A DNA stretch of 64,000 nt from Kiritimatiellia bacterium (GCA_035327585.1 DAOLDD010000012.1:10882-74881); one strand, 5' to 3'. Positions 1 through 26,488 are shown, counted from the stretch's first letter. Made by a program: numbers and translations. The notes: generated by a model from the sequence alone, not told the origin.

Positions 1-434
1 AGGCGTTCCGTCCGCCCGGGATGCGCTGGGAGGACCGCGAGGTGCGCGGCGTGCGAATCATCAACGACGCCTACAACGCCAACCCGATGAGCATGCGCGC
101 GGCGCTCGATGCGTTCGCGGAAATTGACGTGGCGGGAAATCGATGGCTCGTGCTCGGCGCGATGCGGGAACTCGGCACGCACGCGGAGGAGGAACACCTG
201 GCGCTGGGCCGTTTGCTGGCGCGCGGTCCCTGGGCGGGCCTCGTCGCCGTCGGCCCGGAAGGGGCGTGGTTGCGCGAGGGCGCCCGCTCCGTGGGCTTCC
301 AGAAGATCCGGCTGGCGGCGGACGCGATGGAGGCGGCGCGGATATTGAAAGACTTGATTCAGCCCGGCGATGCCGTATTGCTCAAGGCCTCGCGCGGGGT
401 CGCGTTGGAGGATGTTCTGGATGAACTGGGGTGA
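1..434 (+). CDS. murF: UDP-N-acetylmuramoyl-tripeptide--D-alanyl-D-alanine ligase MurF, C-terminal fragment (5' end lies outside the window)
   Basis: Frame is open from position 3. The translation (RGVRIINDAYNANPMSMRAALDAFAEI...GAMRELG...LLKASRGVALE) matches the MurF C-terminal domain, and mraY follows immediately. Confidence 0.8.
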   Translation, partial: AFRPPGMRWEDREVRGVRIINDAYNANPMSMRAALDAFAEIDVAGNRWLVLGAMRELGTHAEEEHLALGRLLARGPWAGLVAVGPEGAWLREGARSVGFQKIRLAADAMEAARILKDLIQPGDAVLLKASRGVALEDVLDELG

Positions 435-552
435 GCAGGTATCGGGTGTCGGGTTTCAGGTGTCGGGGAGGACGCTCCTCGTTTACAACGTCTGTAAATC
501 CGGTCTTCGCGCTGTTCCAACCTCTGTAATTTACAGCCCCTGCAATTCCTCC

Positions 553-580
553 CTGACACCTGACACCTGACACCTGACAC
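553..580. repeat. Perfect 4x tandem heptamer CTGACAC, directly upstream of the mraY start
   Basis: Read in sequence: ctgacac x4 at 553-580. The inverse motif gtgtc occurs twice at 441-468, giving an imperfect long inverted repeat around a core with two TGTAAA/TTTACA palindromes. Confidence 0.8.
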
Positions 581-593
581 CCGAAACCCTCAT

Positions 594-1724
594 ATGCTCT
601 ACTTCCTTCACGAACAAACGGAACTCTGGGCGCCGCTGCGCATCTTCCGCTACATCACGTTTCGCGCGCTGATGGGCGCGGGGACGGCGTTTGTCCTCAC
701 GCTGCTGCTGGGCCCGGTGATCATCCGCTGGCTGCGCTGGCTGAAGTTCGGCCAGTACGTGCGCGACGACGCGGTGCTGGCGCACCAGCATCGCAAGAAA
801 TCGGGCACACCGACGATGGGCGGCGTGCTGATCATCGCGTCCGTGGTGGTGGCGACGGTGCTGTGGGCCGACCCGCGCAATGTGTACGTGTGGCTGGCGC
901 TGGGCACGATGCTCGCGATGGGGGCGATCGGCTTTTGGGACGACTACTTGAAGGTTTCGAAACGAAACGCCAAAGGCGCACCGGGTCGGATCAAACTGCT
1001 GCTGGAAATCGGCTGGGCGCTGCTGGTCGTTGCGGCGCTGTATGCGTGGGAGCCTTCGCGTGCACACGTGGCGAAGCTCATGCTGCCGTTCCTGAAGGAC
1101 CCGTTCATCGCGAACCTGGGCGTGCTGGGCGTGGTCATCTTCATCACGCTCGTGCTGGTGGGTTCGGCGAACGCGGTGAACCTGACGGACGGGCTGGATG
1201 GCCTGGCGATCGGGTGCACGAATTCGGCGGCGGCGGCCTATCTCGCGTTGGCGTACGTGGCGGGCAACAGCCTGGCGGCGAATTACCTGTTGGTGCCGTT
1301 CGTGCCGGGCAGCGGCGAGCTCGCGGTATTTTGCGGGTGCCTGCTCGGCGCGGGCCTCGGGTTCCTCTGGTACAATTGCCACCCGGCGCGTGTGTTTATG
1401 GGCGACACGGGCAGCCTCGCGCTGGGCGGCGCAATCGCGATGGTGGCGGTGGCGATCAAGCAGGAACTGCTGCTGGTGATCGTCGGCGGCGTCTTCGTGA
1501 TGGAGGCGCTGAGCGTGATGATCCAGATCGCTTCCTTCAAGCTGACGGGCAAACGCGTGTTCCGGTGCGCGCCGATCCACCACCACTTCGAACACCTCGA
1601 GAAAGAGCGGGCCGCGATTGAGGGCCGCGACGTGGAGGTGGTGGAGACGATGGTGACGATCCGTTTCTGGATCCTGGGCATCATCTTCGCGCTGATCGGC
1701 GTGGCGACGCTGAAGATCCGGTGA
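594..1724 (+). CDS. mraY: Phospho-N-acetylmuramoyl-pentapeptide transferase MraY
   Basis: 376-aa polytopic membrane protein with MraY hallmarks (NAVNLTDGLDGLA, HHHFE) and a dcw-cluster context. Confidence 0.9.
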   Translation: MLYFLHEQTELWAPLRIFRYITFRALMGAGTAFVLTLLLGPVIIRWLRWLKFGQYVRDDAVLAHQHRKKSGTPTMGGVLIIASVVVATVLWADPRNVYVWLALGTMLAMGAIGFWDDYLKVSKRNAKGAPGRIKLLLEIGWALLVVAALYAWEPSRAHVAKLMLPFLKDPFIANLGVLGVVIFITLVLVGSANAVNLTDGLDGLAIGCTNSAAAAYLALAYVAGNSLAANYLLVPFVPGSGELAVFCGCLLGAGLGFLWYNCHPARVFMGDTGSLALGGAIAMVAVAIKQELLLVIVGGVFVMEALSVMIQIASFKLTGKRVFRCAPIHHHFEHLEKERAAIEGRDVEVVETMVTIRFWILGIIFALIGVATLKIR

Positions 1725-3058
1725 TGCACACGGGCACCCATGCGTTGGTGTTGGGCCTTGGCGAGAGCGGCGCCCATGCGGCGAAGCTGCTGCTGCGCGA
1801 GGGGCTGCGCGTGACGATCTTTGAACAGCAGGTGCATCCCATGACCGCGGAGGCGTGGGTCGGGCTGGGCGGGCAGACGGTGGCTGCCGCTCCGGATGCG
1901 GCGATTCCCGCGGACGTGGATTTGTGCGTGGTGAGTCCCGGCATTCCGGTGGAACATCCCTGGCTGGCGTCCGCCCGCGCGCGGGGGTTGCACCCCGTGC
2001 CGGAGTTCGAGCTGGGCTGGAGCCGGTTCCGGGGCCGCGTGGCCGCGATCACGGGCACGAACGGCAAGAGCACGATGGTGAAGTGGATGGCGGAAAGCCT
2101 GCTCGCGTCCGGATTTCGCGCCGCGCCGGCGGGCAACTATGGGCCCAGTGTGAGCCGCGTGGTGTGCGAGCAGCCGGACCTGGACTGGCTGGTGATTGAG
2201 GCGAGTTCGTTCCAGTTGGAGACCGCGCGGCATTTTCGCGCCGACCTGTCCGTGCTGCTTAACATCGCGCCGAATCACCTGGACCGGCATCCGTCGATGG
2301 AAGCCTATGTGGACGCCAAGGCGCGCCTGTTCGCGCAGGTGCGGGGCCGGGATGTTTGCATGGCGCCGGCGGCGTGGCGGACGCGCATGCAGGCGGCGTC
2401 GGGCGGGCGTGGCGCCTGGTATAGCTTTGGTTGCGCGGCGACGGATGATTATCGCTGGGGAAACAGCTGTGTCCTGCATCGCGCGGATACCGTGCTGGAT
2501 GCGCGCGGAACCTTTCTCGACAACGCGATCCTGGGCCCGCATGCGGCGGCCGTGGCGGGCGCGCTGCACGCGGCGGGACTGCCGTTGGACGGAGCCGGGG
2601 CCGCGGCGCGCGCGTTCAAGTCGCTGCCTCATCGTATGGAGCCGGTCGCGGAGGCGGGCGGCATACGCTTCGTAAATGACTCGAAGGCGACCACGCTGAC
2701 GGCGATGCGCGCGGCACTCGAAATGGCCGGGGGACCGGTGCGGCTGATCGCGGGCGGATTGCTGAAAGAAACCGATTTGAATTGCGTCAAAGAAATGCTG
2801 GCCCTGCACGCCCGCGGGGTTTACCTTGTGGGGAAAGCTGCGGAAAAAATGGCTTCGCAGTGGGCGGATACCGTTCCTTGCGAGGTGTGCGGCGAGTTGG
2901 AGAAGGCGGTTGGTGCGGCGTGGCGGGCGGCGCGTCCGGGCGAGGTGATCCTGCTCTCGCCGGGTTGCGCGAGTTTCGACCAGTTTGCGAATTTTGAACG
3001 ACGTGGAGATGAATTTCGGCGCATCGCGAAAGCGCTGGCCGGGGAGCGAAAATCATGA
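1721..3058 (+). CDS. murD: UDP-N-acetylmuramoylalanine--D-glutamate ligase MurD
   Basis: GTG/ATG start overlaps the mraY stop. The N-terminal Rossmann domain (LVLGLGESG), the Mur ligase ATP motif GTNGKST and a C-terminal Mur ligase domain are present. Confidence 0.85.
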   Translation: MMHTGTHALVLGLGESGAHAAKLLLREGLRVTIFEQQVHPMTAEAWVGLGGQTVAAAPDAAIPADVDLCVVSPGIPVEHPWLASARARGLHPVPEFELGWSRFRGRVAAITGTNGKSTMVKWMAESLLASGFRAAPAGNYGPSVSRVVCEQPDLDWLVIEASSFQLETARHFRADLSVLLNIAPNHLDRHPSMEAYVDAKARLFAQVRGRDVCMAPAAWRTRMQAASGGRGAWYSFGCAATDDYRWGNSCVLHRADTVLDARGTFLDNAILGPHAAAVAGALHAAGLPLDGAGAAARAFKSLPHRMEPVAEAGGIRFVNDSKATTLTAMRAALEMAGGPVRLIAGGLLKETDLNCVKEMLALHARGVYLVGKAAEKMASQWADTVPCEVCGELEKAVGAAWRAARPGEVILLSPGCASFDQFANFERRGDEFRRIAKALAGERKS

Positions 3059-4068
3059 ACAACAAGCAACAGTGGAGTACGATCATGCAAGCGTCGGACG
3101 AACGTCGGAGCAACGTGCGGGGGCCCCTGCTGGCGGGCATCATTGCCGGGCTTCACGTGGTGGCAATTTCCGGTTTTCTGGTGATTCAGGGGTGCGGCAC
3201 GAAGCAGCCGATGGTTGAGCCGCCGCCGTCCCCGGTAATGCCGCCGCGCGGCGACGCAGGCGCGCCGCCCGCGGTGATGCCGCGTCCAAGTTTCCAGCCG
3301 CCGGTCGGTGTGGAACAGGCGCCGATGACAATCGAGGAAGCGTCCGTGCGCGTGCACACCGTTGCTGGCGGCGAATCGCTGGCCCGGATCGCAAACCGCT
3401 ACGGCGTGTCGGTGAGTGAGCTGGTGCAGCTCAATGGCATCAAGGACCCGAACAAGATTCGCGTTGGCCAGTCGCTGAAGCTGCCGAGCTATGCGTCGGA
3501 GTCCGCCGCCCCGGCCGCCGCCCCGAAACCGGTGAAGCCGAAGGTCGAGAAGGCATCCGCCCCGGCGGTCGCGGGTGACGGGACGTATGTGGTTCAGTCC
3601 GGCGACAGTTTGTCCAAGATCGCGTCGCGCCAGGGCACGACGGTGAAGGCGCTCAAGGAAGTGAACAACCTGCAGAGCGATGTGATTCGCATCGGACAGA
3701 AATTGAAACTGCCCGCGGGCGCAAAACCCGCCGCCGCCAAGCCCGCCGCCGCGAAACCCGCGCCCGCGCCTGAACCCGCTCCTGCCCCCGCGCCGGTCCC
3801 GGCGCCTTCCGTGCCCGACGCGACGATTCCGCCGCCGGTGACCGCGCCTGCGCCCACACCGGTTGCCGCGGCCGTCTCCGCGCCGGCGCCGTCGTTTGAT
3901 GCCGCCTCGATTCCGTTCGAATACACGGTGCGTCCCGGCGAGACGATTGATGACATCGCCCGGAACTTCGCCGTGCTCCGCCAGGACATCCTCTCGATGA
4001 ACGGCTTGTCCGAGGGTGCGACGGTGTCGGCCGGGCAGAAACTAAAGATCCCGATGTCCGCGCCCTGA
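3055..4068 (+). CDS. Secreted/lipoprotein-like protein with three LysM domains and a Pro/Ala-rich linker, with no peptidase domain
   Basis: Start overlaps the murD stop. Hydrophobic N-terminal segment followed by three LysM repeats (YVVQSGDSLSKIASRQGTTVKALKEVN..., etc.) and an (AAKPA)n / PAPAP linker. Confidence 0.7.
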   Translation: MNNKQQWSTIMQASDERRSNVRGPLLAGIIAGLHVVAISGFLVIQGCGTKQPMVEPPPSPVMPPRGDAGAPPAVMPRPSFQPPVGVEQAPMTIEEASVRVHTVAGGESLARIANRYGVSVSELVQLNGIKDPNKIRVGQSLKLPSYASESAAPAAAPKPVKPKVEKASAPAVAGDGTYVVQSGDSLSKIASRQGTTVKALKEVNNLQSDVIRIGQKLKLPAGAKPAAAKPAAAKPAPAPEPAPAPAPVPAPSVPDATIPPPVTAPAPTPVAAAVSAPAPSFDAASIPFEYTVRPGETIDDIARNFAVLRQDILSMNGLSEGATVSAGQKLKIPMSAP

Positions 4069-4086
4069 GCGGCGTTCGGACTTCCG

Positions 4087-4131
4087 TGAGGGGTCTTGTG
4101 CACGCAGGTGCAGGAGGCCCCTCATTTGTTT
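4087..4131 (+). terminator. Rho-independent-type terminator hairpin after the LysM gene
   Basis: Perfect 7-bp stem tgagggg/cccctca with an internal tgcac/gtgca sub-stem, followed by tttgttt. Direct repeats GTTAACGAG(T/C)GGCGG follow at 4128-4164 before the ftsW start. Confidence 0.45.
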
Positions 4132-4173
4132 AACGAGTGGCGGGAAATGGTTAACGAGCGGCGGAGTTGAGCG

Positions 4174-5307
4174 ATGTGGCGGACGACAACCATTTTGGTG
4201 ACGGCGGTATTGCTGCTGGTCGCGCTGGGCATCGTGATGCTGGCGAGCACGAGCGGCGTGCACGGCAACGCGCTATTCGGCGATCCCAACTATTTTGTGA
4301 AGCGTCAGGCCGCGGCGTTGGTCCTCGGGTTGCTGGCGGCCATCCTGGGCGCGCGCATTGATTATCAGGTCTGGAAAAAATTCGCCGTGCCCTTGGCGGG
4401 GATTACGTTTCTCCTGCTGGCCGCCGTGCTCGTCCCCGGCATCGGCATTGAGGTCAAGGGCAGCCGTCGCTGGATTTCACTTGGCGTGACGACGATGCAG
4501 CCATCGGAAATCGGAAAGGTGGCGCTGATTTTTCTGCTCGCATGGTGGATGAGCCGGGTGAAGCGCAAGGCGGGCGAGTTGGTGCCCGGACTGATCATTC
4601 CGGGCGCGTTGATGGGCGCGCTGATTTTGCCGGTGCTCGTGGGCCCGGACTTTGGCACCAGTATGCTCATGGGCGCGGTTGGATTCGCGATGCTTTGGGC
4701 GGGCGGCTCGCGGTTCAGCCATTTGGCGATCGCGGGCACGGGCGCGGCGAGTTTCATGACGGTCCTGATCATGCAAAACGAGGTGCGCATGCGGCGCATC
4801 ATCGCGTTCCTCGACCCCGAACGGTACGCGGACCGGGAAGCGTTCCAGTTGCTGAACGCCATTTACGCCTTCGTCATGGGCGGCAGCGGCGGGGTGGGGC
4901 TGGGCGCGAGTTTGCAGAAGCGGTACTACCTGCCGGAATCGCACACTGATTTTATTTTCGCGATCATCGGCGAGGAACTGGGTTTGGCGGCGTCGATGGG
5001 CGTGCTGCTCCTGTTTGCGGTTATCTTCGTGTGCGGGCTGCGCATCTCCGCGCGGGCGCCGGATTCCTTCGGACGTCTCGCCGCGCTCGGGCTCACCTGC
5101 ATGATTACGATCCAGGCGGCGATCAACCTCGGCGTGGTGACGGGTTGCCTGCCCACCAAGGGGCTGCCGCTTCCGTTCATCAGCTACGGCGGCACCAGCC
5201 TCGCCATCACGCTCGGCATGGTCGGCGTGCTGGTGGGCATCGCGCGGCAGGCGGGTGAGGACGGCGCTTCGCTCTCCGTCGTCCGCGACCGCGCACGGCG
5301 AGTTTAG
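4174..5307 (+). CDS. ftsW: SEDS-family peptidoglycan glycosyltransferase, FtsW-like (assigned from its position after murD)
   Basis: 377-aa multi-TM FtsW/RodA/SpoVE-family protein (GLPLPFISYGGTSL). The dcw context argues FtsW rather than RodA. Confidence 0.75.
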   Translation: MWRTTTILVTAVLLLVALGIVMLASTSGVHGNALFGDPNYFVKRQAAALVLGLLAAILGARIDYQVWKKFAVPLAGITFLLLAAVLVPGIGIEVKGSRRWISLGVTTMQPSEIGKVALIFLLAWWMSRVKRKAGELVPGLIIPGALMGALILPVLVGPDFGTSMLMGAVGFAMLWAGGSRFSHLAIAGTGAASFMTVLIMQNEVRMRRIIAFLDPERYADREAFQLLNAIYAFVMGGSGGVGLGASLQKRYYLPESHTDFIFAIIGEELGLAASMGVLLLFAVIFVCGLRISARAPDSFGRLAALGLTCMITIQAAINLGVVTGCLPTKGLPLPFISYGGTSLAITLGMVGVLVGIARQAGEDGASLSVVRDRARRV

Positions 5308-5546
5308 CGCGAGCGCCGCGCGCGTTCGATCAGTTTTCCAATGATCGGATCATCGGCGACGCCGCCCAGCATGCCGGGTTGGCGTTCGGCCGGCGAAATT
5401 CAGAACGGATTGCTATCTCCAATTTGTAATTGGAAATCGGCAATGGGCCATTCATGCGAATCCGGGGATTGGGAGCGGATTGGGCCTGTGCGGTGGATTC
5501 AGTCTTGACGGGTGGAAGCGGGGTAAAGCACTATCCATGAAATTAA

Positions 5547-6602
<1,056 letters not shown>

Positions 6603-6695
6603 CGCTTCGCGCGCCGGCCGCCGCCTTTTTCCATTTCATCGCCCAGGAGTCCGAAAGGTTCCGGTCATGCACCCGACCTTTTCAGAGACGGGCCC

Positions 6696-7562
6696 GTGGG
6701 GGATGCCGTGAGAGAGCGCCGCTTCACCATCTGGGTGTTGCTGGTGGTGCTGCTGCTCGCCCTCGTCAACCTGCCCGCCGCCCAGAGCCTGGGCGTCAGG
6801 AACGCCGTGCGTTCCGCGCTGGCCCCGCTCCAGGAGTCCGTCACAGGCGGCCTGCGTCGCCTGCGCGAAGGCTGGGCGACCGTGCGGGGACTTGGCGGCA
6901 TGGCGCTTGAAAACCAGCGCATGGCGACCGAGGTCGCACGTCTGCTGGGCGAAGTGCGGGATCTCAAATCGCTCGAACGCGAAAATGAACAATTGCGCGG
7001 CGTGCTCGGATTCGCCAGTCGCGCCCAGCGCGACCTGATCCCCGCGGAGGTCATCGCGCGCAGTCGCGACGGGTGGTGGCAGACGCTGCGATTAAACAAG
7101 GGATCGGACGACGGCGTGGCGCCGGACCAGGCGGTGATTTCAGTGGACGGCCTTGTCGGGCGCGTCGCCTCCGTTTCCGCGCGCACGGCGGATGTCCTGC
7201 TGATTTCCGATCCGACCTGCCGCATCGCCTCGCAAATCCTGCGCACCGGTTCCTTTGGCCTCGTCGCGGGACGCGGCCCGCAGTGGGACGGCTCGGTCGT
7301 GTGCCGGATGGAATTCATCAACAAGAACATCCCGATCCAGCCCGGCGACGAGGTGATCACCTCGGGACTCGGCGGCATTTTCCCGCGCGGCCTGCTGATC
7401 GGCTACGTGGATCGCGTGGTAACGGATCGCTCCGGGTTGTACCAGTACGCGGATGTCATCTCGAAGGCGGATGTCGGCACGCTGCAATACGTTTTCGCCG
7501 TGCGCGACGTTTCGCGCGGCGCGCCGTATGTACGCTCCGCCGGGGAGGCGCCGCGCCCGTGA
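6696..7562 (+). CDS. mreC: Rod shape-determining protein MreC
   Basis: N-terminal TM segment, coiled-coil region and MreC beta-domain motifs (GLVGRV, ITSGLGGIFPRGLLIG), immediately after mreB. Confidence 0.85.
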   Translation: MGDAVRERRFTIWVLLVVLLLALVNLPAAQSLGVRNAVRSALAPLQESVTGGLRRLREGWATVRGLGGMALENQRMATEVARLLGEVRDLKSLERENEQLRGVLGFASRAQRDLIPAEVIARSRDGWWQTLRLNKGSDDGVAPDQAVISVDGLVGRVASVSARTADVLLISDPTCRIASQILRTGSFGLVAGRGPQWDGSVVCRMEFINKNIPIQPGDEVITSGLGGIFPRGLLIGYVDRVVTDRSGLYQYADVISKADVGTLQYVFAVRDVSRGAPYVRSAGEAPRP

Positions 7563-8062
7563 ACCAGATCGCCCTCATTTTTTCGCTCCTGATGGCTGCG
7601 CTGCTGCAGGCGGCCGTGCCGACGACCGCGTGGACGGGCTGGGCTCCGGCGCCGGTGATGGCCGGGCTGGTCGTGTATTACGCGCTCGTGCATCCGCGCG
7701 GCCTCGTGCTGGAGGTCGCCCTGCTCGCCGGCCTCGTGGAGGACAGCCTGAGCCAGATGCCGCTGGGCACCACGAGCTTCGCTTACGCCGTGGCCGGCCT
7801 CGTCATGGAGCGTTATCGCGAAGATGTCGTGGTGCGCCAGTGGACGACGCACGTCGTGTTCGGGGCGCTGGTGAACGCGTCGGCGACGGTGTTCGCGATG
7901 TTCATGTTGCTGAAGGACGGCCTGATCCAGCCGCCGGGCCTGCATGTCCTGTTGCGCCTAGCCGGCGCGTTTGTGCTCGGCGGACTCATCGCGCCGTTTG
8001 TGTTCAAGGCGATGGAAAATCTTGATGCCACGCTCGGGCATGTCGACGTGGAGGCCGGCTGA
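7559..8062 (+). CDS. mreD: Rod shape-determining protein MreD
   Basis: GTG at 7559 overlaps the mreC stop (7560-7562). Small multi-TM protein embedded in the longer 7073..8062 ORF, in the typical mreBCD position. Confidence 0.7.
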   Translation: MNQIALIFSLLMAALLQAAVPTTAWTGWAPAPVMAGLVVYYALVHPRGLVLEVALLAGLVEDSLSQMPLGTTSFAYAVAGLVMERYREDVVVRQWTTHVVFGALVNASATVFAMFMLLKDGLIQPPGLHVLLRLAGAFVLGGLIAPFVFKAMENLDATLGHVDVEAG

Positions 8063-9882
8063 TGGCGCGCGGCAGTCCATGGGATGACGAGTTCCTGCGC
8101 CTCCGCGTGGTGCTTGTGGGCATGCTGGCGCTGTTCGTATTTCTCGGCGGCTGGCTCTGGCACATCCAGGTCCACCGCGGCCCGAGTTTTGAGCAGGATC
8201 AGATGAAGCAGAGCATGCGGCGCGTGCGTCTTCCCGGCGTGCGGGGCCGCCTGCTGGATCGCGAGGGCCGTATCGTTGCGGACAACCGGCCCAGCTACAC
8301 CATTTCCATTTACATGGAGGAACTGCGGCAGCCTGGACCCTGGGATCGCACCATTGAGCGCGTCGAAACACTCCTGCGCGAGCTCGAGGTGATCCTGGGC
8401 GAGCCTTCCATCCTGACCCGCCAGGACATCCGCAACCACATCCGCAGGCGCCTGCCGCTGCCGCTCGTCGCGTGGCGCGACATCAGCGAGCCCGTGATGG
8501 CGCGATTCGCGGAGCAGGGCGGTCGCATCCCGGGCGTGGACATCCAGGCGGAAAGCACGCGGGTGTATCCCTTCCATGAAATGGCGGGCCATGCCATCGG
8601 TTACGTCGGTCGCGCGGAAATCGCGCAGGACGAGGAGGAGCCGTTTCATTTTTACCTGCCGGAGGTGGCCGGTCGCAGCGGGCTCGAGAAGAGCCTCGAT
8701 GCCTACCTGCGCGGCGAAGCGGGCGGGCGCCTCCTGCGCGTCGACGTGACCGGATACCGCCGTTACGATTTTAAACAGCGCGAACCGCGGCCCGGCCAGG
8801 ACGTCATGCTGACGCTGGATATGCATGCGCAGGCGCTCGCGGAAAAGGCGCTCGGCGCCGACCCCGGCTCCGTCGTCGTCCTCGATCCGCGCAACGGCGA
8901 CGTGCTCGCGCTGGTGAGCCGACCCGGTTTCGATCCCAACGATTTCGTGCCGGCCATTTCCTCCGCGCGCTGGTCCGCGTTGAACGAAAACCCGCTGACC
9001 CCGATGCTGAATCGATCCATTTCCGGCGGGTATGCCCCGGGAAGCACGTTCAAAGTCATCACAATGCTCGCCGGCCTCGAAAGCGGGAAAGCGTCGCCCG
9101 CCGACACGCATCATTGTCCGGGCTATTTCCAGCTCGGCCGCGCGACCTTCCGCTGCTGGTTCCATCCGGGCCACGGCAGCCTGGCGATGCGGCGCGCGAT
9201 CGAGCAGTCGTGCAACGTCTATTGCTTCCACCTCGGTCTCGCGATGGGCATGCCACGCCTGCATGAAATGTCGGTGCGGATGGGGCTCGGCGCGCGCACG
9301 GGCATCGAACTGGAAAATGAACTCGCCGGCCTCGTGCCGGACGATGCGTGGAAACGCCGGACCCAGAACGACGTCTGGCGCGACGGCGACACCTGCAATG
9401 TATCCATCGGCCAGGGCGCGCTCGTCGTGACGCCGCTCCAGATGGCCCAGGTGACCGCGCTGATCGCGAATGGCGGACGCTTCTACCGGCCGCGGCTCGT
9501 GCGCGGGGTGCGGGAATTCGGCGATGGCGCGTTCGCCATGCAGCCGCCCGAACTGATCCGCGAAATGCAGTGGCCGGCCGCGAATCTGGACGTCGTCCGA
9601 CAGGGCATGCGCGATGTGGTGCACGGCGAACGCGGCACCGCGCGCCGCGTGGCCATCCCCGGCATCACCATCGCGGGCAAGACCGGCACCGCGGAGTTCG
9701 GCCGCAAGGACGAGCGCAAGCGGCACGCCTGGATGATTGCGTTCGCGCCCTTTGAGGCGCCCCGCTATGCGGTTGCGCTGCTGGTGGACGAGGGCATCTC
9801 CGGCGGCGAGACCGCGGCGCCGCGTATGCGTGAACTGTTGCTTGGCCTGCTCAAGCCGGAATCGGCGGGAGGGCGCGGCTGA
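8062..9882 (+). CDS. mrdA: Penicillin-binding protein 2 (elongasome transpeptidase)
   Basis: ATG overlaps the mreD stop. N-terminal TM segment, PBP dimerisation domain, transpeptidase motifs STFK (SxxK), SCN (SxN) and KTGTA (KTG). Confidence 0.88.
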   Translation: MARGSPWDDEFLRLRVVLVGMLALFVFLGGWLWHIQVHRGPSFEQDQMKQSMRRVRLPGVRGRLLDREGRIVADNRPSYTISIYMEELRQPGPWDRTIERVETLLRELEVILGEPSILTRQDIRNHIRRRLPLPLVAWRDISEPVMARFAEQGGRIPGVDIQAESTRVYPFHEMAGHAIGYVGRAEIAQDEEEPFHFYLPEVAGRSGLEKSLDAYLRGEAGGRLLRVDVTGYRRYDFKQREPRPGQDVMLTLDMHAQALAEKALGADPGSVVVLDPRNGDVLALVSRPGFDPNDFVPAISSARWSALNENPLTPMLNRSISGGYAPGSTFKVITMLAGLESGKASPADTHHCPGYFQLGRATFRCWFHPGHGSLAMRRAIEQSCNVYCFHLGLAMGMPRLHEMSVRMGLGARTGIELENELAGLVPDDAWKRRTQNDVWRDGDTCNVSIGQGALVVTPLQMAQVTALIANGGRFYRPRLVRGVREFGDGAFAMQPPELIREMQWPAANLDVVRQGMRDVVHGERGTARRVAIPGITIAGKTGTAEFGRKDERKRHAWMIAFAPFEAPRYAVALLVDEGISGGETAAPRMRELLLGLLKPESAGGRG

Positions 9883-10997
9883 TGCAACCGACGCAACGCA
9901 TGCTCTATTTTTGGAAGCGCATGGATTGGCTGGCGCTGCTCTCCGTTTTTGCGCTCATCGTGGTGGGCATTGTTTTCATCTACAGCGCCTCCTTCCGGCA
10001 GGAGGACATACAGATGACGGCGCTCACCCAGCGCCAGATCCTCTGGGCGCTGGTGGGCTTGTGCGTGCTTTTCGGGGCGGTTGCGGTCGACTACCGGCGG
10101 GTCGGCCGTGTCGCCCCCATCGTCTATATCGCCTGCCTTGTCCTGCTGGTGCTCGTCCTCCTGATGGGCCGGAAAATTTATGGCGCGACGCGGTGGCTCA
10201 GTCTGTTTGGCGTGCTGGTCCAGCCGTCCGAATTCGCGAAACTGGGTACGATACTGCTCATGGCGCGTTTCCTGAGTGAGCCGGCGCGGGATTTGGCGCA
10301 TCCGCGCACGCTGTTGGTTGTGCTGGCGCTAGCCGCGCTCCCGTTCGTCCTCATCCTCCAGCAGCCGGACCTCGGAACGGCCTCCACGCTGATCCCGGTG
10401 GCGCTGGTGATGCTGTTCGTCGCTGGCGTGCCGATGCGCTATTTGTTCGTTCTGGCCGGGCTCGGCATCCTTGCGCTGGCGCCCGGCTGGTTCATTCTCG
10501 ATGGTTATCAACGGGAGCGTTTGCTCGTCTTTTTCGATCCGGGGCGTGATCCGCTGGGCGCGGGCTGGAACAGCATCCAGTCCGGCATCGCGGTCGGCTC
10601 CGGCGGGTTGACGGGCAAGGGCTACATGATGGGGACCCAGAATGTGCTGGGTTTTCTGCCGCGTACGGTGGCGCCCACGGATTTCATTTTTTCCGTGATC
10701 GCCGAGGAGAGCGGCTTCATCGGCAGCGTCGTGCTGCTGGTGTTGTTCGCGTTCCTGATGATCGGCGGCTTTCGCGCCGGTCTCGCCTCCCGCGATAAAT
10801 TCGGCCGGCTGCTCGCGACCGGCGTGACGACCCTGCTGTTCTGCCATGTGTTCGTGAACATGGCGATGACGGTGGGGCTCATGCCGATCACCGGGCTGCC
10901 GCTGCCGCTGGTGAGTTATGGCGGTTCGTTTATGTTGTGCACCATGGCGGCTCTGGGCCTGGTGCAAAGCGTGTATGCGCGCCGGTTCCGGCGCTGA
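9882..10997 (+). CDS. rodA: SEDS-family peptidoglycan glycosyltransferase RodA
   Basis: Start overlaps the mrdA stop. Multi-TM FtsW/RodA family with LPLPLVSYGGS near the C-terminus, in the classic mrdA-rodA pairing. Confidence 0.85.
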   Translation: MQPTQRMLYFWKRMDWLALLSVFALIVVGIVFIYSASFRQEDIQMTALTQRQILWALVGLCVLFGAVAVDYRRVGRVAPIVYIACLVLLVLVLLMGRKIYGATRWLSLFGVLVQPSEFAKLGTILLMARFLSEPARDLAHPRTLLVVLALAALPFVLILQQPDLGTASTLIPVALVMLFVAGVPMRYLFVLAGLGILALAPGWFILDGYQRERLLVFFDPGRDPLGAGWNSIQSGIAVGSGGLTGKGYMMGTQNVLGFLPRTVAPTDFIFSVIAEESGFIGSVVLLVLFAFLMIGGFRAGLASRDKFGRLLATGVTTLLFCHVFVNMAMTVGLMPITGLPLPLVSYGGSFMLCTMAALGLVQSVYARRFRR

Positions 10998-11011: not shown

Positions 11012-12616
11012 ATGTTGTGGGGATTCTTAAAGCTGTTCGCGCGGCGCAAGATTAAGCGCGAGATCGTGATCAACGCGGAAAGTTTGGAAACGCGTGTCGC
11101 GACGCTGCAGGAGGGCAAGCTCGAGGACTTTTTCATCGAGCGCACCAGCGACGACCGGATCGTCGGCAGCATCTTCAAGGGGCGCATCCAGAATCTGGAG
11201 GACGGCCTGCAGGCCGCCTTCATCGATATCGGGATGAAGAAAAACGCCTTCATCCACTACTGGGACATGATCCCGGAGGACGCGGCGCGCCTCGAGGCGG
11301 AAGAGGGGCTCGAAAGTCGCCGGCCGACGCGGCGCAAGAAATTCGCGCCGGGCGAGATGACGAAGCAGTTCCCTGTCGGCTCGGAAATTGTCGTGCAGGT
11401 CACCAAGGGCGCCATCGGCACCAAGGGACCGCGTGTGACCGCGAACCTGAGCATTCCCGGCCGCTACCTCGTGATGATGCCCGGCACCACGCTCAAGGGC
11501 GTTTCGCGCAAGATCGAGGACGTGAAGGAGCGCGAGCGGCTGAAGAAGGTGCTTGCGCGCCTGCCCGCGCCCGGCGGAAACGGTCTCATCGTCCGCACCG
11601 CGGGCGAGGGCGCCCGTGCCGTTTCGTTCGCCCGCGACGTGCGTGCGCTGGCGGAGATCTGGAAGGACATTGAGGACGGCATCAAAAACACGCCGGCCCC
11701 GTGCCGCTTGTACCAGGAACCGGATCTCGTCGAGCGCACCGTGCGCGACTCGCTGACGGAGGATGTCGACCGCATCGTCGTTGACTCCCGCGCGGAATAC
11801 GACCGCATTCGCAGCATCGTCGCGAAGTACGCGCGGCGCACGCGCACGCGGATCCAGTTCTACGAGGGCGACGCGCCGATTTTCGAGCATTTCGACGTGG
11901 AACGCCAATTGGAGAACGCGTTCAGCCGCAAGGTCTGGCTCAAGAGCGGCGGCTACCTCATCGTCGACGAAACCGAGGCGCTCGTCGCGATCGACGTCAA
12001 CACGGGCCGCCACAAAGGCTCGCAGAACCAGGAAGATTCGATTTTCGAGGTCAACCAGGAGGCCGCCGAGGAGGTGGGCCGCCAGTTGCGCCTCCGCAAT
12101 GTCGGTGGCTTGGTCGTCATCGACTTCATCGACATGAAGTCGCGCAAGCACCAGAACCAGGTGTACCGCACGCTCAAGGACGCGCTGAAAAACGACAAGG
12201 CCCGCACGAACGTGCTTCCGCTGTCGCAACTCGGGCTCATGGAAATGACCCGGCAGCGGCAGGAGGAAAGTGTGCGCGCGGCCACCTACATGAACTGCCC
12301 GTATTGTGAGGGCAAGGGCAAGGTGAAATCCGCCCTGTCGATGAGCGTTGAAATCCAGCGCCGCATCGCCGAGGTCATGCGCCGCAAGAAAGCGAGCGCG
12401 TCCAATCCACTCAACATCAAGATCACGATCAACCCGAGCATCCTGGAGCGGCTGCGCACCGAGGATGAGGAAATCCTGGTGCAGATGGAGGAGCGGTACC
12501 ACGGGCACATGACCTTCGTCGGAAACCCGAACATGCACGTCGAGGAATTCTCGATCGTGCATGCCCAGACCAATGAGGAGCTCTTCAGCAGCGTGCAAAC
12601 CCCGCGCGCGGGCTGA
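11012..12616 (+). CDS. rng: RNase E/G family ribonuclease (RNase G-like, no long C-terminal scaffold)
   Basis: An RBS-like aaaggagag precedes the ATG at 11012. S1 domain and RNase E/G catalytic core (DIGMKKNAFIHYWD, VIDFIDM) plus a zinc-link CPYCEGKG. The upstream 10937 start would overlap rodA. Confidence 0.85.
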   Translation: MLWGFLKLFARRKIKREIVINAESLETRVATLQEGKLEDFFIERTSDDRIVGSIFKGRIQNLEDGLQAAFIDIGMKKNAFIHYWDMIPEDAARLEAEEGLESRRPTRRKKFAPGEMTKQFPVGSEIVVQVTKGAIGTKGPRVTANLSIPGRYLVMMPGTTLKGVSRKIEDVKERERLKKVLARLPAPGGNGLIVRTAGEGARAVSFARDVRALAEIWKDIEDGIKNTPAPCRLYQEPDLVERTVRDSLTEDVDRIVVDSRAEYDRIRSIVAKYARRTRTRIQFYEGDAPIFEHFDVERQLENAFSRKVWLKSGGYLIVDETEALVAIDVNTGRHKGSQNQEDSIFEVNQEAAEEVGRQLRLRNVGGLVVIDFIDMKSRKHQNQVYRTLKDALKNDKARTNVLPLSQLGLMEMTRQRQEESVRAATYMNCPYCEGKGKVKSALSMSVEIQRRIAEVMRRKKASASNPLNIKITINPSILERLRTEDEEILVQMEERYHGHMTFVGNPNMHVEEFSIVHAQTNEELFSSVQTPRAG

Positions 12617-12682
12617 ACAGCAGCCGCGAAAAAAGCGCCCTCTCCCCTTGGGGGAGGGGCGGGGCGAGGGTATGCTTGGCGT

Positions 12683-13312
12683 ATGAGCGAGCGAATCGGC
12701 ATTTTTGGCGGGTCGTTCAACCCGGTGCACCTGGGCCACCTGATCGTGGCGCAGGACGCGCTGGAGCATATGGGACTCACCCGGCTGGTGTTCCTGCCGG
12801 CCGCGCAGCCCCCGCATAAACCGGCCGCCCCGCTGGCCGCGGCGTCGCATCGCCTGGAGATGTTGCGGCTCGCGACGGCGGACGATCCCCGCTTTGAGGT
12901 GTCGGACGACGAGGTGACCCGGGGTGGCGTGTCCTACACGGTGGATACGTTGCGTCGTTTCCGGGAACGATATCCGGCTGCGACGCTGTATTTCCTGATC
13001 GGCGGCGACAGTTTGCTGGAACTGCATACCTGGCGTGAGGTCGGGACGGTGCTCCAACTGGCGGAAATCGTCACGGTGGTCCGGCCCGGCGCGTCGATGG
13101 ACCGTCTGGACGCGACGGTCCTGCGCCTGCCGGACCCCTGGCCCGCGCGACTCACCGCGAATCTTGTGGCCGGTCACCGCATCGATATTTCATCCACCGA
13201 CATCCGCAACCGGGTGAACCGCAAACGCCCCATACGCTACCTTGTGCCGGACGCGGTGGCGCGTTATATTGCCGCGCACCAACTGTATTCGTCCCAGGAG
13301 ATCCCGCGATAG
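12683..13312 (+). CDS. nadD: Nicotinate-nucleotide adenylyltransferase NadD
   Basis: GIFGGSFNPVHLGHL (the H/TxGH nucleotidyltransferase motif). About 210 aa, typical of NadD. Confidence 0.85.
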   Translation: MSERIGIFGGSFNPVHLGHLIVAQDALEHMGLTRLVFLPAAQPPHKPAAPLAAASHRLEMLRLATADDPRFEVSDDEVTRGGVSYTVDTLRRFRERYPAATLYFLIGGDSLLELHTWREVGTVLQLAEIVTVVRPGASMDRLDATVLRLPDPWPARLTANLVAGHRIDISSTDIRNRVNRKRPIRYLVPDAVARYIAAHQLYSSQEIPR

Positions 13313-13320
13313 AAACCATC

Positions 13321-13644
13321 ATGCAAGCACGCCAGGCGCGCGAAGCGCTGCTGGCCAAAAAAGGCGAGCAGGTCACCCTGCTTGATGTTACGGGCCTCTC
13401 CCCGGTCACGGACTTCTACCTCATCGCAACCGGCAACAGCACGCCCCACCTCAAGGCGCTTGCCACCGAGGTGGAGAAGTCGCTCGCCGCGCATGGCGTG
13501 AAATGTTTCCGCCGCGCCGGCACGCCCGACAGCGGCTGGATCGTCGCCGACTACCTGGACTTTGTCGTCCACCTGTTCACCCAGGAACTGCGCGACCACT
13601 ACCAGTTGGAGCGCCTCTGGAGCGACGCAAAAGTCCTCGAGTAG
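13321..13644 (+). CDS. rsfS: Ribosomal silencing factor RsfS (Iojap family)
   Basis: 107-aa protein carrying the Iojap motif DFYLIATGNSTPHLKA...DYLDFVVHLF. nadD-rsfS is a conserved gene pair. Confidence 0.8.
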   Translation: MQARQAREALLAKKGEQVTLLDVTGLSPVTDFYLIATGNSTPHLKALATEVEKSLAAHGVKCFRRAGTPDSGWIVADYLDFVVHLFTQELRDHYQLERLWSDAKVLE

Positions 13645-13984
13645 CGAGGAGACCGGTTGTAGACGGGATGAACAGGATTTACGGGATGGGGGGGGAATTC
13701 TATCCCGTACCCGTAAACGTGCACGTACGCGTTCACGATCCGGAATACACAAACGTGAACGGGAACGTGAACGTGAACGGGACCGACGGGGAATGTTACC
13801 GATCCAGTCCATCCTGTAATCCCGTCCTTCTTCTTTCCGTGAACTCCGCGAATTCCGCGGTTTCATCAGCTCCGGAAGCGCCCGCACCACCATTTTCCGT
13901 AAGCGGGCTGGATTGTGTCGCGTTCTCCGGCTTCCCATCATCGCGATTCTGGTGCATAGTTCCGGCTCCACAGGAGGAGTGTCC

Positions 13985-25590: not shown

Positions 25591-25663
25591 AAATTCTTGC
25601 GTCTGCTTCATTGTGCGTATAATCTGCATCGTTGAGTGGAAGAAAAGGGAAAGGAAAGGCGTC

Positions 25664-26488
25664 ATGAATGCTCGTTTAGGCTGGGTGGTGTCGCTTGGAT
25701 TTTGCCTCAATTTGGGATTTCTGACAGGGGCGTCCGCGACGCTGATACAGGATGACTTCAGCGGGGCTTCACTCAATACGAACGTGTGGGGATCCGCGTT
25801 TACCGGTGGTGCGGCCGCTCCGTCACAGGCGGGTGGTGAATTGACCACCAGCGTGACGACCGGAGGTCAAAACCAGCGCTCACTGATCTACTCGCAGGAA
25901 ACAGATTTCAATTTTTCTCTGCAACCCATCACCATGAGCGCGGATATCGTCGCGCTGGGTGGGGAGGGGTCGGCCACGCAACCCGTGAATAACTATCTCC
26001 TGATCGGTTCGTTCGGCACGAACACGGAGGTTTTGAGCCGATACTACCCGGGTTCGGAACTTCGGCTGGGCGTTTGGCTCTCCGCGGGAGAAACCAATGG
26101 GGTTAACTATCTGGAGGTCGGCACGGTGCGCATCGGCAGCATTACGACCGCCCGCTATGAGTATTCGGGTGAACTGACGTCCATGTCCATGACGCTTTAT
26201 GGAACTTCCTATTCCGTCACGGCCGAAGGCATCAATGGGTTCAGCGTGGGGTCGGGGAATGGGTTCACGGGTACACTGGCGAATGTGAATTCCGCGGAAT
26301 ACAACGATCAATATCGTTTCGCGATGGGATCGGCCAATTCGTACCAAGGCGGGGTCACGACGGGCGCATCGGCTATTTGGGATAGCGTGAGCGTGGTGCC
26401 GGAACCCGGCACGCTGGCGTTGCTGTTGATCGGCGTGGGCGGATTGGCGGTCTCGCGAAAAATATCGCGTCGGGCGCGGCGCGAGTAA
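25664..26488 (+). CDS. PEP-CTERM-anchored secreted protein carrying a novel ~221-aa lectin-like domain (paralog A)
   Basis: Signal peptide, then the domain (LIQDDFSG...GSFGT...YYPGSEL...GVNYLEVGTVRIG...RFAMGSANSYQG), ending in a PEP-CTERM sorting signal VPEPGTLALLLIGVGGLAVSRKISRRARRE. Confidence 0.75.
   Translation: MNARLGWVVSLGFCLNLGFLTGASATLIQDDFSGASLNTNVWGSAFTGGAAAPSQAGGELTTSVTTGGQNQRSLIYSQETDFNFSLQPITMSADIVALGGEGSATQPVNNYLLIGSFGTNTEVLSRYYPGSELRLGVWLSAGETNGVNYLEVGTVRIGSITTARYEYSGELTSMSMTLYGTSYSVTAEGINGFSVGSGNGFTGTLANVNSAEYNDQYRFAMGSANSYQGGVTTGASAIWDSVSVVPEPGTLALLLIGVGGLAVSRKISRRARRE

What the first reader, a model, noticed from the sequence alone, without database searches (positions are those of the whole stretch)
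1..10997. Division (dcw) genes fused directly to the complete elongasome operon, with a LysM protein between murD and ftsW
Order: murF-mraY-murD-[3xLysM protein]-ftsW, then mreB-mreC-mreD-mrdA(PBP2)-rodA. The murG-murC-ddl-ftsQAZ genes that normally follow ftsW are not here. The elongasome operon begins 260 bp downstream. Two SEDS glycosyltransferases (FtsW-like and RodA) and PBP2 are thus co-located. A LysM-only, Pro/Ala-linker lipoprotein sits where murG is expected, a position that suggests a septal peptidoglycan-binding factor. This arrangement is atypical and may be informative about division in a lineage with a reduced or divergent divisome.
Basis: partly seen in the sequence, partly recalled or inferred. 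Interest (0 to 1): 0.5.

Follow-up and report, generated by a model that had tools for sequence, protein, structure and literature searches.

The report
Conserved LysM gene in split dcw cluster
In this Kiritimatiellia genome the cell-division cluster stops after ftsW and happens to sit next to the rod-shape operon, a neighbourhood no relative shares; the part that is conserved across two phyla is a membrane-anchored, cell-wall-binding LysM gene wedged between murD and ftsW.

Summary
The gene order reported is real: murF'-mraY-murD-[3xLysM]-ftsW, a 260-bp spacer, then mreB-mreC-mreD-mrdA-rodA. The window comes from a Kiritimatiellia metagenome contig. Upstream of it lies the ordinary start of the cluster (mraZ-orf-rsmH-ftsL-ftsI-murE-murF), not murG/murC/ftsQAZ.

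The "fusion" with the elongasome operon is specific to this genome.
- In six Kiritimatiellia relatives ftsW is also the last dcw gene. Five have unrelated genes downstream; the sixth contig ends 223 bp after ftsW, in DNA unlike the window's spacer.
- In two close relatives the mre block has other upstream neighbours.
- The ~75 nt before mreB travel with the mre block.

The LysM gene and the break after ftsW are lineage-wide. They occur in all seven Kiritimatiellia loci and five Verrucomicrobiota loci examined. The gene overlaps the murD stop and is followed by a conserved terminator-like hairpin. Its product is one N-terminal helix or lipobox plus three LysM modules on disordered Pro/Ala linkers.

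The closest characterised analogue is chlamydial "NlpD": a TM segment plus two LysM domains, no LytM, encoded among division genes, and septal. Published work reports FtsZ and a full dcw gene set in Kiritimatiellota, so a reduced divisome is not indicated. I could not locate those genes in this genome. Moderate interest.

The parts
3..434 (+). murF, 3' end (gene starts upstream of the window)
   Evidence: PF02875 E 7e-19; TIGR01143 positions 282-418. Full gene seen in L001 8486-9841.
594..1724 (+). mraY
   Evidence: TIGR00445 354 bits, above the cut-off of 192.
1721..3058 (+). murD; its stop overlaps the LysM start (ATGA at 3055-3058)
   Evidence: TIGR01087 335 bits, above the cut-off of 212; sequence read.
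3055..4068 (+). dcw-embedded LysM protein, 337 aa: short N-terminal tail, helix 23-44 ending in the lipobox-like V-I-Q-G-C47, a conserved VEPPPxPVMPP motif, and three LysM modules (99-143, 177-218, 288-332) joined by disordered Pro/Ala linkers
   Evidence: PF01476 x3, E 3e-47. AlphaFold model. Ortholog alignments A1/A2. 120 full-length homologs listed.
4088..4131 (+). GC-rich hairpin GAGGGGUCUU...GAGGCCCCUC followed by AUUUGUUU; terminator- or attenuator-like element between the LysM gene and ftsW
   Evidence: Fold z = -4.2, 0 of 200 shuffles as stable. The same stem sequence plus a U-tract occurs in L164, L165 and L168; other GC hairpins occur in L003 and L169.
4174..5307 (+). ftsW (divisome SEDS protein); last gene of the proximal dcw cluster
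   Evidence: TIGR02614 359.9 bits, above the cut-off of 337.5; RodA model below its cut-off. It is the last dcw gene in every relative examined.
5308..5567 (.). 260-bp spacer. It contains the rearrangement junction (about 5308-5490) and the conserved mreB 5' region (about 5493-5567, including TCTTGACGGGTGGAAGCGGGGT)
   Evidence: Alignment with the mreB upstream regions of L172 and L173. No similarity to the DNA after ftsW in L168. Weak terminator-like site at 5310-5328.
5568..6602 (+). mreB
   Evidence: PF06723 E 1e-153; NF010539 543 bits. Start as called in L001.
6696..7562 (+). mreC
   Evidence: PF04085 E 3e-43; TIGR00219 133 bits, above the cut-off of 92.75.
7559..8062 (+). divergent mreD (167 aa, hydrophobic)
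   Evidence: PF04093 E 2e-4, 21.9 bits, below the gathering score of 24. Position between mreC and mrdA. A 167-aa gene sits at the same place in L172 and L173.
8062..9882 (+). mrdA (PBP2)
   Evidence: TIGR03423 583 bits, above the cut-off of 455.
9882..10997 (+). rodA (elongasome SEDS protein)
   Evidence: TIGR02210 389.9 bits, above the cut-off of 336.7.
11012..13312 (+). rng (RNase E/G) and a nadD-like gene; they continue the conserved mre block
   Evidence: PF10150 E 6e-105; PF01467 E 1e-28. Same order mreB...rodA-rng-nadD-rsfS in L172 and L173.

Best explanation
The first 11 kb of the window hold two separate units that a rearrangement in this one Kiritimatiellia genome placed side by side.

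Unit 1 is the end of the proximal dcw cluster: mraZ-orf-rsmH-ftsL-ftsI-murE-murF-mraY-murD-lysM, a hairpin, then ftsW. In Kiritimatiellota and in the Verrucomicrobiota loci examined, this cluster always ends at ftsW and always carries a LysM gene between murD and ftsW. The distal genes (murG, murC, murB, ddl, ftsQAZ) are encoded elsewhere.

Unit 2 is the self-contained block mreB-mreC-mreD-mrdA-rodA-rng-nadD, which carries its own conserved 5' region.

The LysM protein is made from the same transcript as murD; this is inferred from the overlapping stop and start codons. It is anchored to the membrane by its N-terminal helix or by a lipidated Cys. Its three LysM modules sit on flexible Pro/Ala tethers in the periplasm.

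Its most likely job, which is inferred and not shown, is to bind peptidoglycan at the site where FtsW-FtsI build the septum. It would act as a scaffold or regulator, not as an enzyme, in the way reported for the LysM-only 'NlpD' of Chlamydiae.
For: Shown:
- Gene identities.
- The upstream half of the cluster.
- The source is labelled a Kiritimatiellia MAG.
- murD-LysM-ftsW followed by a break occurs in L003, L162, L164, L165-167, L168 and L169 (Kiritimatiellia), and in L005, L036, L170, L171 and L174 (Verrucomicrobiota).
- The neighbours after ftsW differ every time: an epimerase on the minus strand, an ArsR-methyltransferase with AdoHcyase, a malQ-like gene, and others.
- The mre-rng-nadD-rsfS block is conserved in L172 and L173, with other upstream genes.
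- About 75 nt before mreB are conserved with L172 and L173.
- The two LysM families are homologous and colinear from the helix to the C-terminus: hhalign probability 99.4 %, E 1.5e-21.
- The model has only one helix and three LysM folds.
- Pfam, NCBIfam and PDB searches match nothing but LysM.
- The ATGA overlap with murD recurs in L162, L164, L168 and L169.
- The hairpin after the LysM gene is conserved.

From the literature:
- Chlamydial NlpD has a TM segment plus two LysM domains and no LytM. It lies within a cluster of cell-wall and division genes, is septal in a manner that depends on peptidoglycan synthesis, and binds sacculi (PMC4083446, PMC4083426, PMC13104611).
- The dcw cluster is split in V. 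spinosum (PMC12283558, Fig. S5).
- FtsZ and the dcw genes are present in Kiritimatiellota (PMC5148204, PMC12283558).
Against:
- Orthology with chlamydial NlpD could not be tested by sequence.
- LysM domains are promiscuous, so function cannot be read from the domain alone.
- No localisation or genetic data exist for this family.
- The hairpin between the LysM gene and ftsW means the two genes may not be strictly co-expressed.
- The window sequence comes from a metagenome assembly. However, three records carry the same neighbourhood.
Confidence: 0.72

Rival explanations
1. Functional super-operon: the divisome genes and the elongasome operon are fused so that both SEDS-bPBP pairs are co-expressed, reflecting a merged or reduced division and elongation machinery in this lineage.
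For: All genes are on the same strand and only 260 bp separate ftsW from mreB. No strong terminator was found after ftsW; there is only a weak consensus site at 5310-5328, and the scan as a whole is not above its shuffled controls.
Against: The adjacency is absent from all six Kiritimatiellia relatives. The mre block has other upstream neighbours in the two closest relatives. The mreB 5' region is conserved with those relatives, so the operon keeps its own control region. FtsI and an FtsL-like gene lie upstream, and published work reports FtsZ in the phylum (PMC5148204).
Confidence: 0.06
2. The LysM protein is an FtsN-like trigger of septal synthesis. It would be a membrane-anchored factor whose juxtamembrane motif (VEPPPxPVMPP) or, in Verrucomicrobiae, its invariant basic cytoplasmic tail talks to FtsA/FtsQLB/FtsWI, while its LysM modules read out septal peptidoglycan in place of a SPOR domain.
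For: The layout matches FtsN: tail, helix, Pro-rich linker, then a peptidoglycan-binding module. The most conserved non-LysM parts are the helix, with an invariant His, and the juxtamembrane motif. The Akkermansiaceae-type tail is nearly invariant over about 55 residues. The gene sits immediately 5' of ftsW. In V. spinosum a gene whose locus tag falls between murD and ftsW (VSP_RS19445) is scored essential, but its product is unknown.
Against: There is no sequence similarity to FtsN and no SPOR domain. The cytoplasmic tails of the two families do not align; hhalign starts at the helix. In Kiritimatiellia the helix may be a cleaved lipoprotein signal peptide: 109 of 120 orthologs have a lipobox. 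The identity of VSP_RS19445 is inferred only from tag numbering.
Confidence: 0.15
3. [quoted passage not shown]
For: PMC4083426 reports release of the terminal D-Ala from lipid II by purified Cpn0902. PMC4083446 reports activity in an E. coli nlpI reporter strain.
Against: Outside the three LysM folds the model is disordered. No catalytic domain or family match was found. No conserved His, Asp or Ser cluster is seen in the periplasmic part.
Confidence: 0.05
4. Assembly chimera: the ftsW/mreB junction is a mis-join in the metagenome assembly.
For: The source is a metagenome contig, ERZ794930 NODE_3.
Against: Three records of 0.2-1 Mb carry MraY with mostly the same neighbours across a stretch that spans the junction. 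GC content runs at 0.62-0.67 over the first 12 kb, with no break at the junction. The spacer's 3' part matches the authentic mreB upstream sequence, as expected for a real rearrangement.
Confidence: 0.02

Closest known systems
Chlamydial 'NlpD' (Waddlia NlpD-Wch; C. pneumoniae Cpn0902)
   Same: It has an N-terminal signal or TM segment followed by LysM repeats and no LytM/M23 domain. It is encoded inside a cluster of cell-wall and division genes. It belongs to the same PVC superphylum (PMC4083446, PMC4083426, PMC13104611).
   Different: It has two LysM domains instead of three. Sequence orthology was not tested here. Its exact position in Chlamydia (murD-nlpD-ftsW) is recalled from memory and was not verified. 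Septal localisation, sacculus binding and DD-carboxypeptidase activity are shown only for the chlamydial proteins.
Split dcw cluster of Verrucomicrobium spinosum (mraW cluster plus ftsQAZ cluster)
   Same: The proximal cluster runs from mraW to ftsW. The ddl, murCB and ftsQAZ genes lie elsewhere. A gene tag (VSP_RS19445) falls between murD and ftsW and is scored essential (PMC12283558 and supplement).
   Different: In V. spinosum murG still follows ftsW. In Kiritimatiellia and the Akkermansiaceae, Opitutales and Verrucomicrobiales MAGs examined, the break comes directly after ftsW.
E. coli FtsN (and other SPOR-domain divisome proteins)
   Same: It is a membrane-anchored protein with a long flexible Pro-rich periplasmic linker that ends in a peptidoglycan-binding module. 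Verrucomicrobiae orthologs add a conserved basic cytoplasmic tail.
   Different: There is no SPOR domain and no sequence similarity. FtsN is not encoded in the dcw cluster. An activating role for the LysM protein is untested.
LytM-type division factors with LysM domains (E. coli NlpD, Caulobacter DipM)
   Same: They have LysM repeats and, in NlpD, lipoprotein anchoring. They have a role at the septum.
   Different: The LytM/M23 domain that defines them is absent. NCBIfam scores are far below the cut-offs: NlpD 25.7 against 311, DipM 87 against 740.
Canonical mreBCD-mrdA-rodA elongasome operon
   Same: All five genes are present in the usual order, with overlapping stop and start codons from mreC to rodA.
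   Different: MreD is divergent and scores below the Pfam threshold. The block continues with rng-nadD-rsfS in this lineage.

Membership tests
Canonical dcw cluster (mraZ ... ftsZ) | Proximal order mraZ-rsmH-ftsL-ftsI-murE-murF-mraY-murD | tested here: met
   L001 gene table plus the window. One extra 130-aa ORF lies between mraZ and rsmH.
Canonical dcw cluster (mraZ ... ftsZ) | murD directly followed by ftsW | tested here: not met
   A LysM gene at 3055-4068 is inserted there.
Canonical dcw cluster (mraZ ... ftsZ) | ftsW followed by murG-murC-(murB)-ddl-ftsQ-ftsA-ftsZ | tested here: not met
   mreB follows ftsW. None of these genes was found among the ORFs scanned in the 64-kb window or in the 10 kb upstream.
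mreBCD-mrdA-rodA elongasome operon | MreB, MreC, PBP2 and RodA above curated family cut-offs, in that order | tested here: met
   NF010539 543 bits; TIGR00219 133; TIGR03423 583; TIGR02210 390.
mreBCD-mrdA-rodA elongasome operon | MreD recognisable | tested here: inconclusive
   PF04093 E 2e-4, 21.9 bits, below the gathering score of 24. Position and hydrophobicity fit.
Chlamydial LysM-only 'NlpD' (Cpn0902 / NlpD-Wch) | N-terminal signal or TM segment plus C-terminal LysM repeats, no LytM domain | tested here: met
   Helix 23-44, three LysM folds, nothing else. The chlamydial architecture is taken from PMC4083426 and PMC4083446.
Chlamydial LysM-only 'NlpD' (Cpn0902 / NlpD-Wch) | Encoded within the cell-wall and division gene cluster | tested here: met
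   The gene lies between murD and ftsW here and in 12 related loci. [quoted passage not shown] The exact chlamydial neighbours were not verified.
Chlamydial LysM-only 'NlpD' (Cpn0902 / NlpD-Wch) | Sequence orthology beyond the generic LysM domain | not testable with these tools
   No chlamydial sequence could be retrieved. The top 120 or 150 hits carry no chlamydial names.
Chlamydial LysM-only 'NlpD' (Cpn0902 / NlpD-Wch) | Septal localisation dependent on peptidoglycan synthesis; binding to sacculi | not testable with these tools
   Experimental property.
LytM division factors (NlpD / EnvC / DipM) | LytM (Peptidase_M23) domain | tested here: not met
   No M23 hit in Pfam. NlpD model 25.7 bits against 311; DipM 87 against 740. 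No such fold in the model.
FtsN / SPOR proteins | C-terminal SPOR domain | tested here: not met
   No SPOR hit in Pfam or NCBIfam.
Bacterial lipoproteins (lipobox, PROSITE PS51257 pattern, recalled from memory) | Uncharged stretch followed by [LIVMFWSTAG]2-[LIVMFYSTAGCQ]-[AGS]-C near the N-terminus | tested here: inconclusive
   The pattern is present (V-I-Q-G-C47) and occurs in 109 of 120 Kiritimatiellia-type orthologs. However, the Cys lies beyond residue 35 with the annotated start. The preceding helix has an invariant His. The Verrucomicrobiae orthologs keep the helix and lack the Cys in 0 of 120 cases with a lipobox.

The most novel reading that the evidence does not exclude
The LysM gene between murD and ftsW is a so far overlooked core divisome component of PVC bacteria (Kiritimatiellota, Verrucomicrobiota and, as 'NlpD', Chlamydiota). 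It would take the place of FtsN: a membrane-anchored reader of septal peptidoglycan that licenses FtsW-FtsI. On this reading it is essential, as hinted by the essential V. spinosum gene VSP_RS19445, whose tag lies between murD and ftsW.
Probability: 0.18. Interest if true: 0.65.

Novelty: new member of a known kind. Interest (0 to 1): 0.33.

Why it matters
The adjacency of the two SEDS-bPBP systems says nothing general, because it is a one-genome rearrangement.

The conserved feature may be useful. It is a LysM-only, membrane-anchored protein fixed at the murD/ftsW junction in two PVC phyla, and it resembles the septal 'NlpD' of Chlamydiae. It is a candidate shared, lineage-specific division factor and a possible synteny marker for PVC evolution.

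I found no paper in the searchable library that mentions it for Kiritimatiellota or Verrucomicrobiota. Genetic tools now exist for V. spinosum, so its role could be tested directly.

Tried and rejected
- The scan of JGI metagenome contigs with FtsW gave only distant relatives, at most 46 % identity, because generic FtsW peptide patterns saturated the candidate list. It was of no use for synteny.
- The GTDB scan with FtsW gave few close relatives, but it revealed the LysM gene in Akkermansiaceae and Opitutales.
- The profile search of the LysM family against 1.84 billion representatives was dominated by long multi-LysM proteins. Only about a third of the top 150 were full-length family members. 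It did not show how far the family extends.
- A seven-sequence consensus fold of the LysM-ftsW spacers gave no structure because the spacers do not align. The single-sequence folds were informative.
- I tried to confirm the chlamydial gene order murD-nlpD-ftsW from papers (CT758-760, Cpn0900-0904). Nothing was held.
- Pilhofer et al. 2008 (PMC2347405) is not held.
- I could not locate ftsZ, ftsA, ftsQ, murG or murC of this genome, because there is no way to scan the rest of the 680-kb contig or the MAG.
- Rejected, a cluster rearranged so that murG/ftsQAZ lie upstream of murF: one search shows the ordinary mraZ-to-murF order there.
- Rejected, the LysM protein as an NlpD- or DipM-type LytM factor: there is no M23 domain.

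Full report

Yes.

| Gene | Coordinates | Support |
|---|---|---|
| murF (3' end) | 3-434 | Mur_ligase_C; TIGR01143 C-terminal part |
| mraY | 594-1724 | TIGR00445, above cut-off |
| murD | 1721-3058 | TIGR01087, above cut-off |
| LysM protein (337 aa) | 3055-4068 | three Pfam LysM stretches |
| ftsW | 4174-5307 | TIGR02614, 359.9 bits against 337.5 |
| mreB | 5568-6602 | PF06723 |
| mreC | 6696-7562 | PF04085 |
| mrdA | 8062-9882 | TIGR03423, 583 bits |
| rodA | 9882-10997 | TIGR02210, 390 bits |

The small hydrophobic gene between mreC and mrdA (7559-8062) matches Pfam MreD only below threshold: E 2e-4, 21.9 bits against 24. Its position makes it mreD.

The spacer from ftsW to mreB is 260 bp. 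None of the ORFs scanned in the rest of the window is murG, murC, murB, ddl, ftsQ, ftsA or ftsZ.

The LysM gene is inserted between murD and ftsW, a junction that is normally direct. It is not at the place of murG, which normally follows ftsW.

**2. Where the window comes from, and what lies upstream**

The exact MraY protein is found on a 680-kb metagenome contig, ENA ERZ794930 NODE_3. The window corresponds to about 467.9-531.9 kb of it. The identical LysM protein is labelled "MAG TPA: Kiritimatiellia bacterium".

The 10 kb upstream hold, in order:
- EF-G, yebC, ruvC, and an AbiEii gene on the other strand;
- then mraZ, a 130-aa ORF, rsmH, an ftsL-sized ORF, ftsI, murE and murF.

The cluster has an ordinary proximal half that simply stops after ftsW.

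**3. Is the junction with the elongasome operon meaningful?**

No. I examined six Kiritimatiellia relatives whose LysM proteins are 37-74 % identical to the window's. All have mraZ...murD-LysM-ftsW. What follows ftsW differs in each:

| Locus | What follows ftsW |
|---|---|
| L162 | epimerase on the minus strand, then glycosyltransferases |
| L164, L165-167 | ArsR-type methyltransferase and AdoHcyase |
| L169 | malQ-like gene |
| L003 | minus-strand genes |
| L168 | contig ends 223 bp after ftsW; that DNA is unlike the window's spacer |

The converse test gives the same answer. In two close relatives (MreC 88 % and 81 % identical), the block mreB-mreC-mreD-mrdA-rodA-rng-nadD-rsfS is intact. 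In L172 it is preceded by an ankyrin-repeat gene and his genes. In L173 it is preceded by a DHH phosphoesterase and the fab genes.

L162 (dcw) and L172 (mre) come from the same sample but lie on different contigs with different flanks.

The last ~75 nt before the mreB start codon (about 5493-5567, including TCTTGACGGGTGGAAGCGGGGT) are conserved with L172 and L173. The rest of the spacer is not. The mre operon therefore carries its own 5' region, and the rearrangement junction lies in about 5308-5490.

A mis-assembly is unlikely. Three records of 0.2-1 Mb carry mostly the same neighbours, and base composition is even across the junction.

**4. What is conserved: the LysM gene and the break after ftsW**

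The LysM protein has a well-populated family of full-length homologs: 120 are listed, 277-366 aa long. The named ones come from Kiritimatiellia or "Verrucomicrobia bacterium" MAGs.

A second, related family of 290-315 aa occurs in Akkermansiaceae and Verrucomicrobiae. Profile-profile comparison joins the two families over their whole length, colinearly from the membrane helix to the last LysM module: probability 99.4 %, E 1.5e-21.

In five Verrucomicrobiota loci the gene sits at the same place, murD-LysM-ftsW, and the cluster again ends after ftsW. These are L005 (Akkermansiaceae), L036 (Opitutales), L170, L171 and L174 (Verrucomicrobiales). Omnitrophota and other phyla in the same scan have murD directly followed by ftsW.

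A split dcw cluster is already described for V. spinosum, which has a mraW cluster and a separate ddl/murCB/ftsQAZ cluster (PMC12283558, Fig. S5). There, murG still follows ftsW.

**5. Anatomy of the LysM gene and protein**

Gene context:
- The gene's ATG overlaps the murD stop (ATGA, 3055-3058). The same 4-bp overlap is seen in L162, L164, L168 and L169. This suggests co-transcription and translational coupling with murD.
- Directly after its stop lies a strong hairpin (4088-4123) followed by AUUUGUUU. The fold z-score is -4.2.
- The same stem sequence (GAGGGGUCUU...CCCCUC) with better U-tracts is found in L164, L165 and L168. The upper stem of L165 differs on both sides but still pairs. Other GC hairpins occur in L003 and L169.
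- I read this as a conserved terminator or attenuator that sets ftsW expression apart from the mur genes. This is an inference.

Protein:
- The AlphaFold model built on 28 orthologs shows a helix at 23-44 and three high-confidence LysM folds at 99-143, 177-218 and 288-332. Everything else is disordered.
- Pfam, NCBIfam and the PDB match only through LysM. No M23/LytM, SPOR or other catalytic domain is present.
- Outside LysM the best-conserved parts are the helix, with an invariant His34; the sequence I-Q-G-C-G-T; and the juxtamembrane motif VEPPPxPVMPP.
- The I/V-Q-G-C sequence fits the lipobox pattern and occurs in 109 of 120 Kiritimatiellia-type orthologs.
- The Verrucomicrobiae orthologs keep the His-containing helix but have no Cys (0 of 120 with a lipobox). 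They add a nearly invariant basic cytoplasmic tail of about 55 residues.
- Whether the Kiritimatiellia protein is a cleaved lipoprotein or keeps its helix is therefore open.

**6. Likely function**

Shown: the architecture is a membrane anchor plus three peptidoglycan-binding modules on flexible tethers, and the genomic position inside the division cluster is fixed across two phyla.

Inferred: the protein binds peptidoglycan near the FtsW-FtsI synthase and acts as a scaffold or regulator.

The closest characterised case is the chlamydial protein annotated NlpD:
- It has a TM or signal segment and two LysM domains, but no LytM domain.
- It is encoded within a cluster of cell-wall and division genes.
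- It localises to the septum only when peptidoglycan synthesis proceeds.
- It binds sacculi through LysM (PMC4083446).
- Purified Cpn0902 removed the terminal D-Ala of lipid II (PMC4083426, PMC13104611).

I recall that in Chlamydia the gene lies between murD and ftsW, but I could not verify this. I also could not obtain a chlamydial sequence to test orthology.

An enzymatic role is hard to reconcile with the absence of any fold other than LysM.

A more speculative reading is an FtsN-like trigger, with a 15 % chance in my estimate. The layout resembles FtsN, and the Verrucomicrobiae tail is strikingly conserved.

One lead supports this. In the V. spinosum TraDIS data, locus tag VSP_RS19445 is scored essential. 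Numerically it falls between murD (VSP_RS36300, listed between tags 19435 and 19455) and ftsW. Its product is not given in the held files, so its identity as the LysM ortholog is inference only.

**7. Reduced divisome?**

Not indicated. ftsI and an ftsL-sized gene are present upstream. FtsW and RodA each score above the cut-off of their own family model, and each has its cognate class B PBP nearby.

Published work reports:
- a division complex including FtsZ in Kiritimatiella glycovorans (PMC5148204) and in Pontiella (bioRxiv 10.1101/2023.06.09.544357);
- a highly conserved dcw gene set in Kiritimatiellota reference proteomes (PMC12283558).

I could not locate these genes in this particular genome.

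**8. Novelty and verdict**

- The dcw/elongasome "fusion" is a genome-specific neighbourhood without demonstrable function. This part is ordinary.
- The dcw-embedded LysM gene is a real, conserved, lineage-wide feature.
- I found no paper in the searchable library that mentions it for Kiritimatiellota or Verrucomicrobiota.
- It is best filed as a new member of a known kind, the LysM-only division-cluster protein known from Chlamydiae. Sequence-level membership remains untested.
- Overall interest is moderate to low (0.33). It would rise to about 0.65 if the protein proves to be an essential, FtsN-like divisome component across PVC bacteria.

Noticed in passing
window 4088-4131 (also L164 about 11023-11068, L165 about 11032-11072, L168 about 9280-9322): A conserved GC-rich hairpin with a U-tract lies between the LysM gene and ftsW. 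The stem sequence GAGGGGUCUU/..CCCCUC is shared by relatives whose LysM proteins are only 50-74 % identical. The upper stem of L165 differs on both sides but still pairs. It looks like an intrinsic terminator or attenuator inside the dcw cluster.
   Followed up: partly
L001 3541-3933 (upstream of the window); L162 1020-1490, L164 1058-1486, L165 1037-1483, L169 918-1379: A conserved ORF of 130-156 aa with no Pfam match lies between mraZ and rsmH in all Kiritimatiellia loci examined. No gene is called at that place in the Akkermansiaceae and Verrucomicrobiae loci L170 and L171.
   Followed up: partly
window 7559-8062: A divergent MreD candidate (167 aa, sub-threshold Pfam match) is conserved in size and position in L172 and L173. 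[quoted passage not shown]
   Followed up: partly
window 11012-13650; L172 14301-16894; L173 14300-16906: The mre operon is followed by rng (RNase E/G), a nadD-like gene and, in the relatives, rsfS. Together they form a conserved block that moves as a unit. The window ORF 13321-13644 is probably rsfS; I did not check it.
   Followed up: no
PMC12283558, Data S5 (V. spinosum): Locus tag VSP_RS19445 falls numerically between murD and ftsW and is scored essential by TraDIS. It has no E. coli or P. limnophila ortholog in the paper's tables. It may be the V. spinosum LysM ortholog.
   Followed up: partly
Alignment A4 (P0121-P0240), residues 1-75: Akkermansiaceae and Verrucomicrobiae orthologs carry a nearly invariant basic cytoplasmic tail (MNKxIQxKRNKPSGSHYRVLYAKTGRKRRLHAAT...) before the His-containing helix. 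Such conservation suggests a cytoplasmic binding partner.
   Followed up: no
L173 13193-14287 (GCA_027493775.1): rodA is called as three fragments of 115, 111 and 136 aa in this relative. The cause is either frameshift errors in the assembly or a decaying gene.
   Followed up: no
L001 2153-2701 (minus strand, just upstream of mraZ): An AbiEii-type toxin gene (PF08843) sits between ruvC and mraZ.
   Followed up: no
window about 22000-58200: This is a long carbohydrate-utilisation region. It holds two GH130-like genes, two rhamnosidase-like genes, GH1, a SASA-type acetylesterase, ThuA, and a fucose/arabinose-isomerase-like gene. It also holds GntR, IclR and AraC regulators, a PEP-CTERM protein (25613-26488) and a prepilin-type N-methyl/DUF1559 protein (30707-31582). 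Several large ORFs have no Pfam match (26711-29341, 44759-47557). The region fits a polysaccharide-degrading PVC bacterium.
   Followed up: no
window 58614-63998: An ORF of at least 1795 aa runs off the end of the window. Its only match is a weak PATR (passenger-associated transport repeat) hit, below the gathering score.
   Followed up: no
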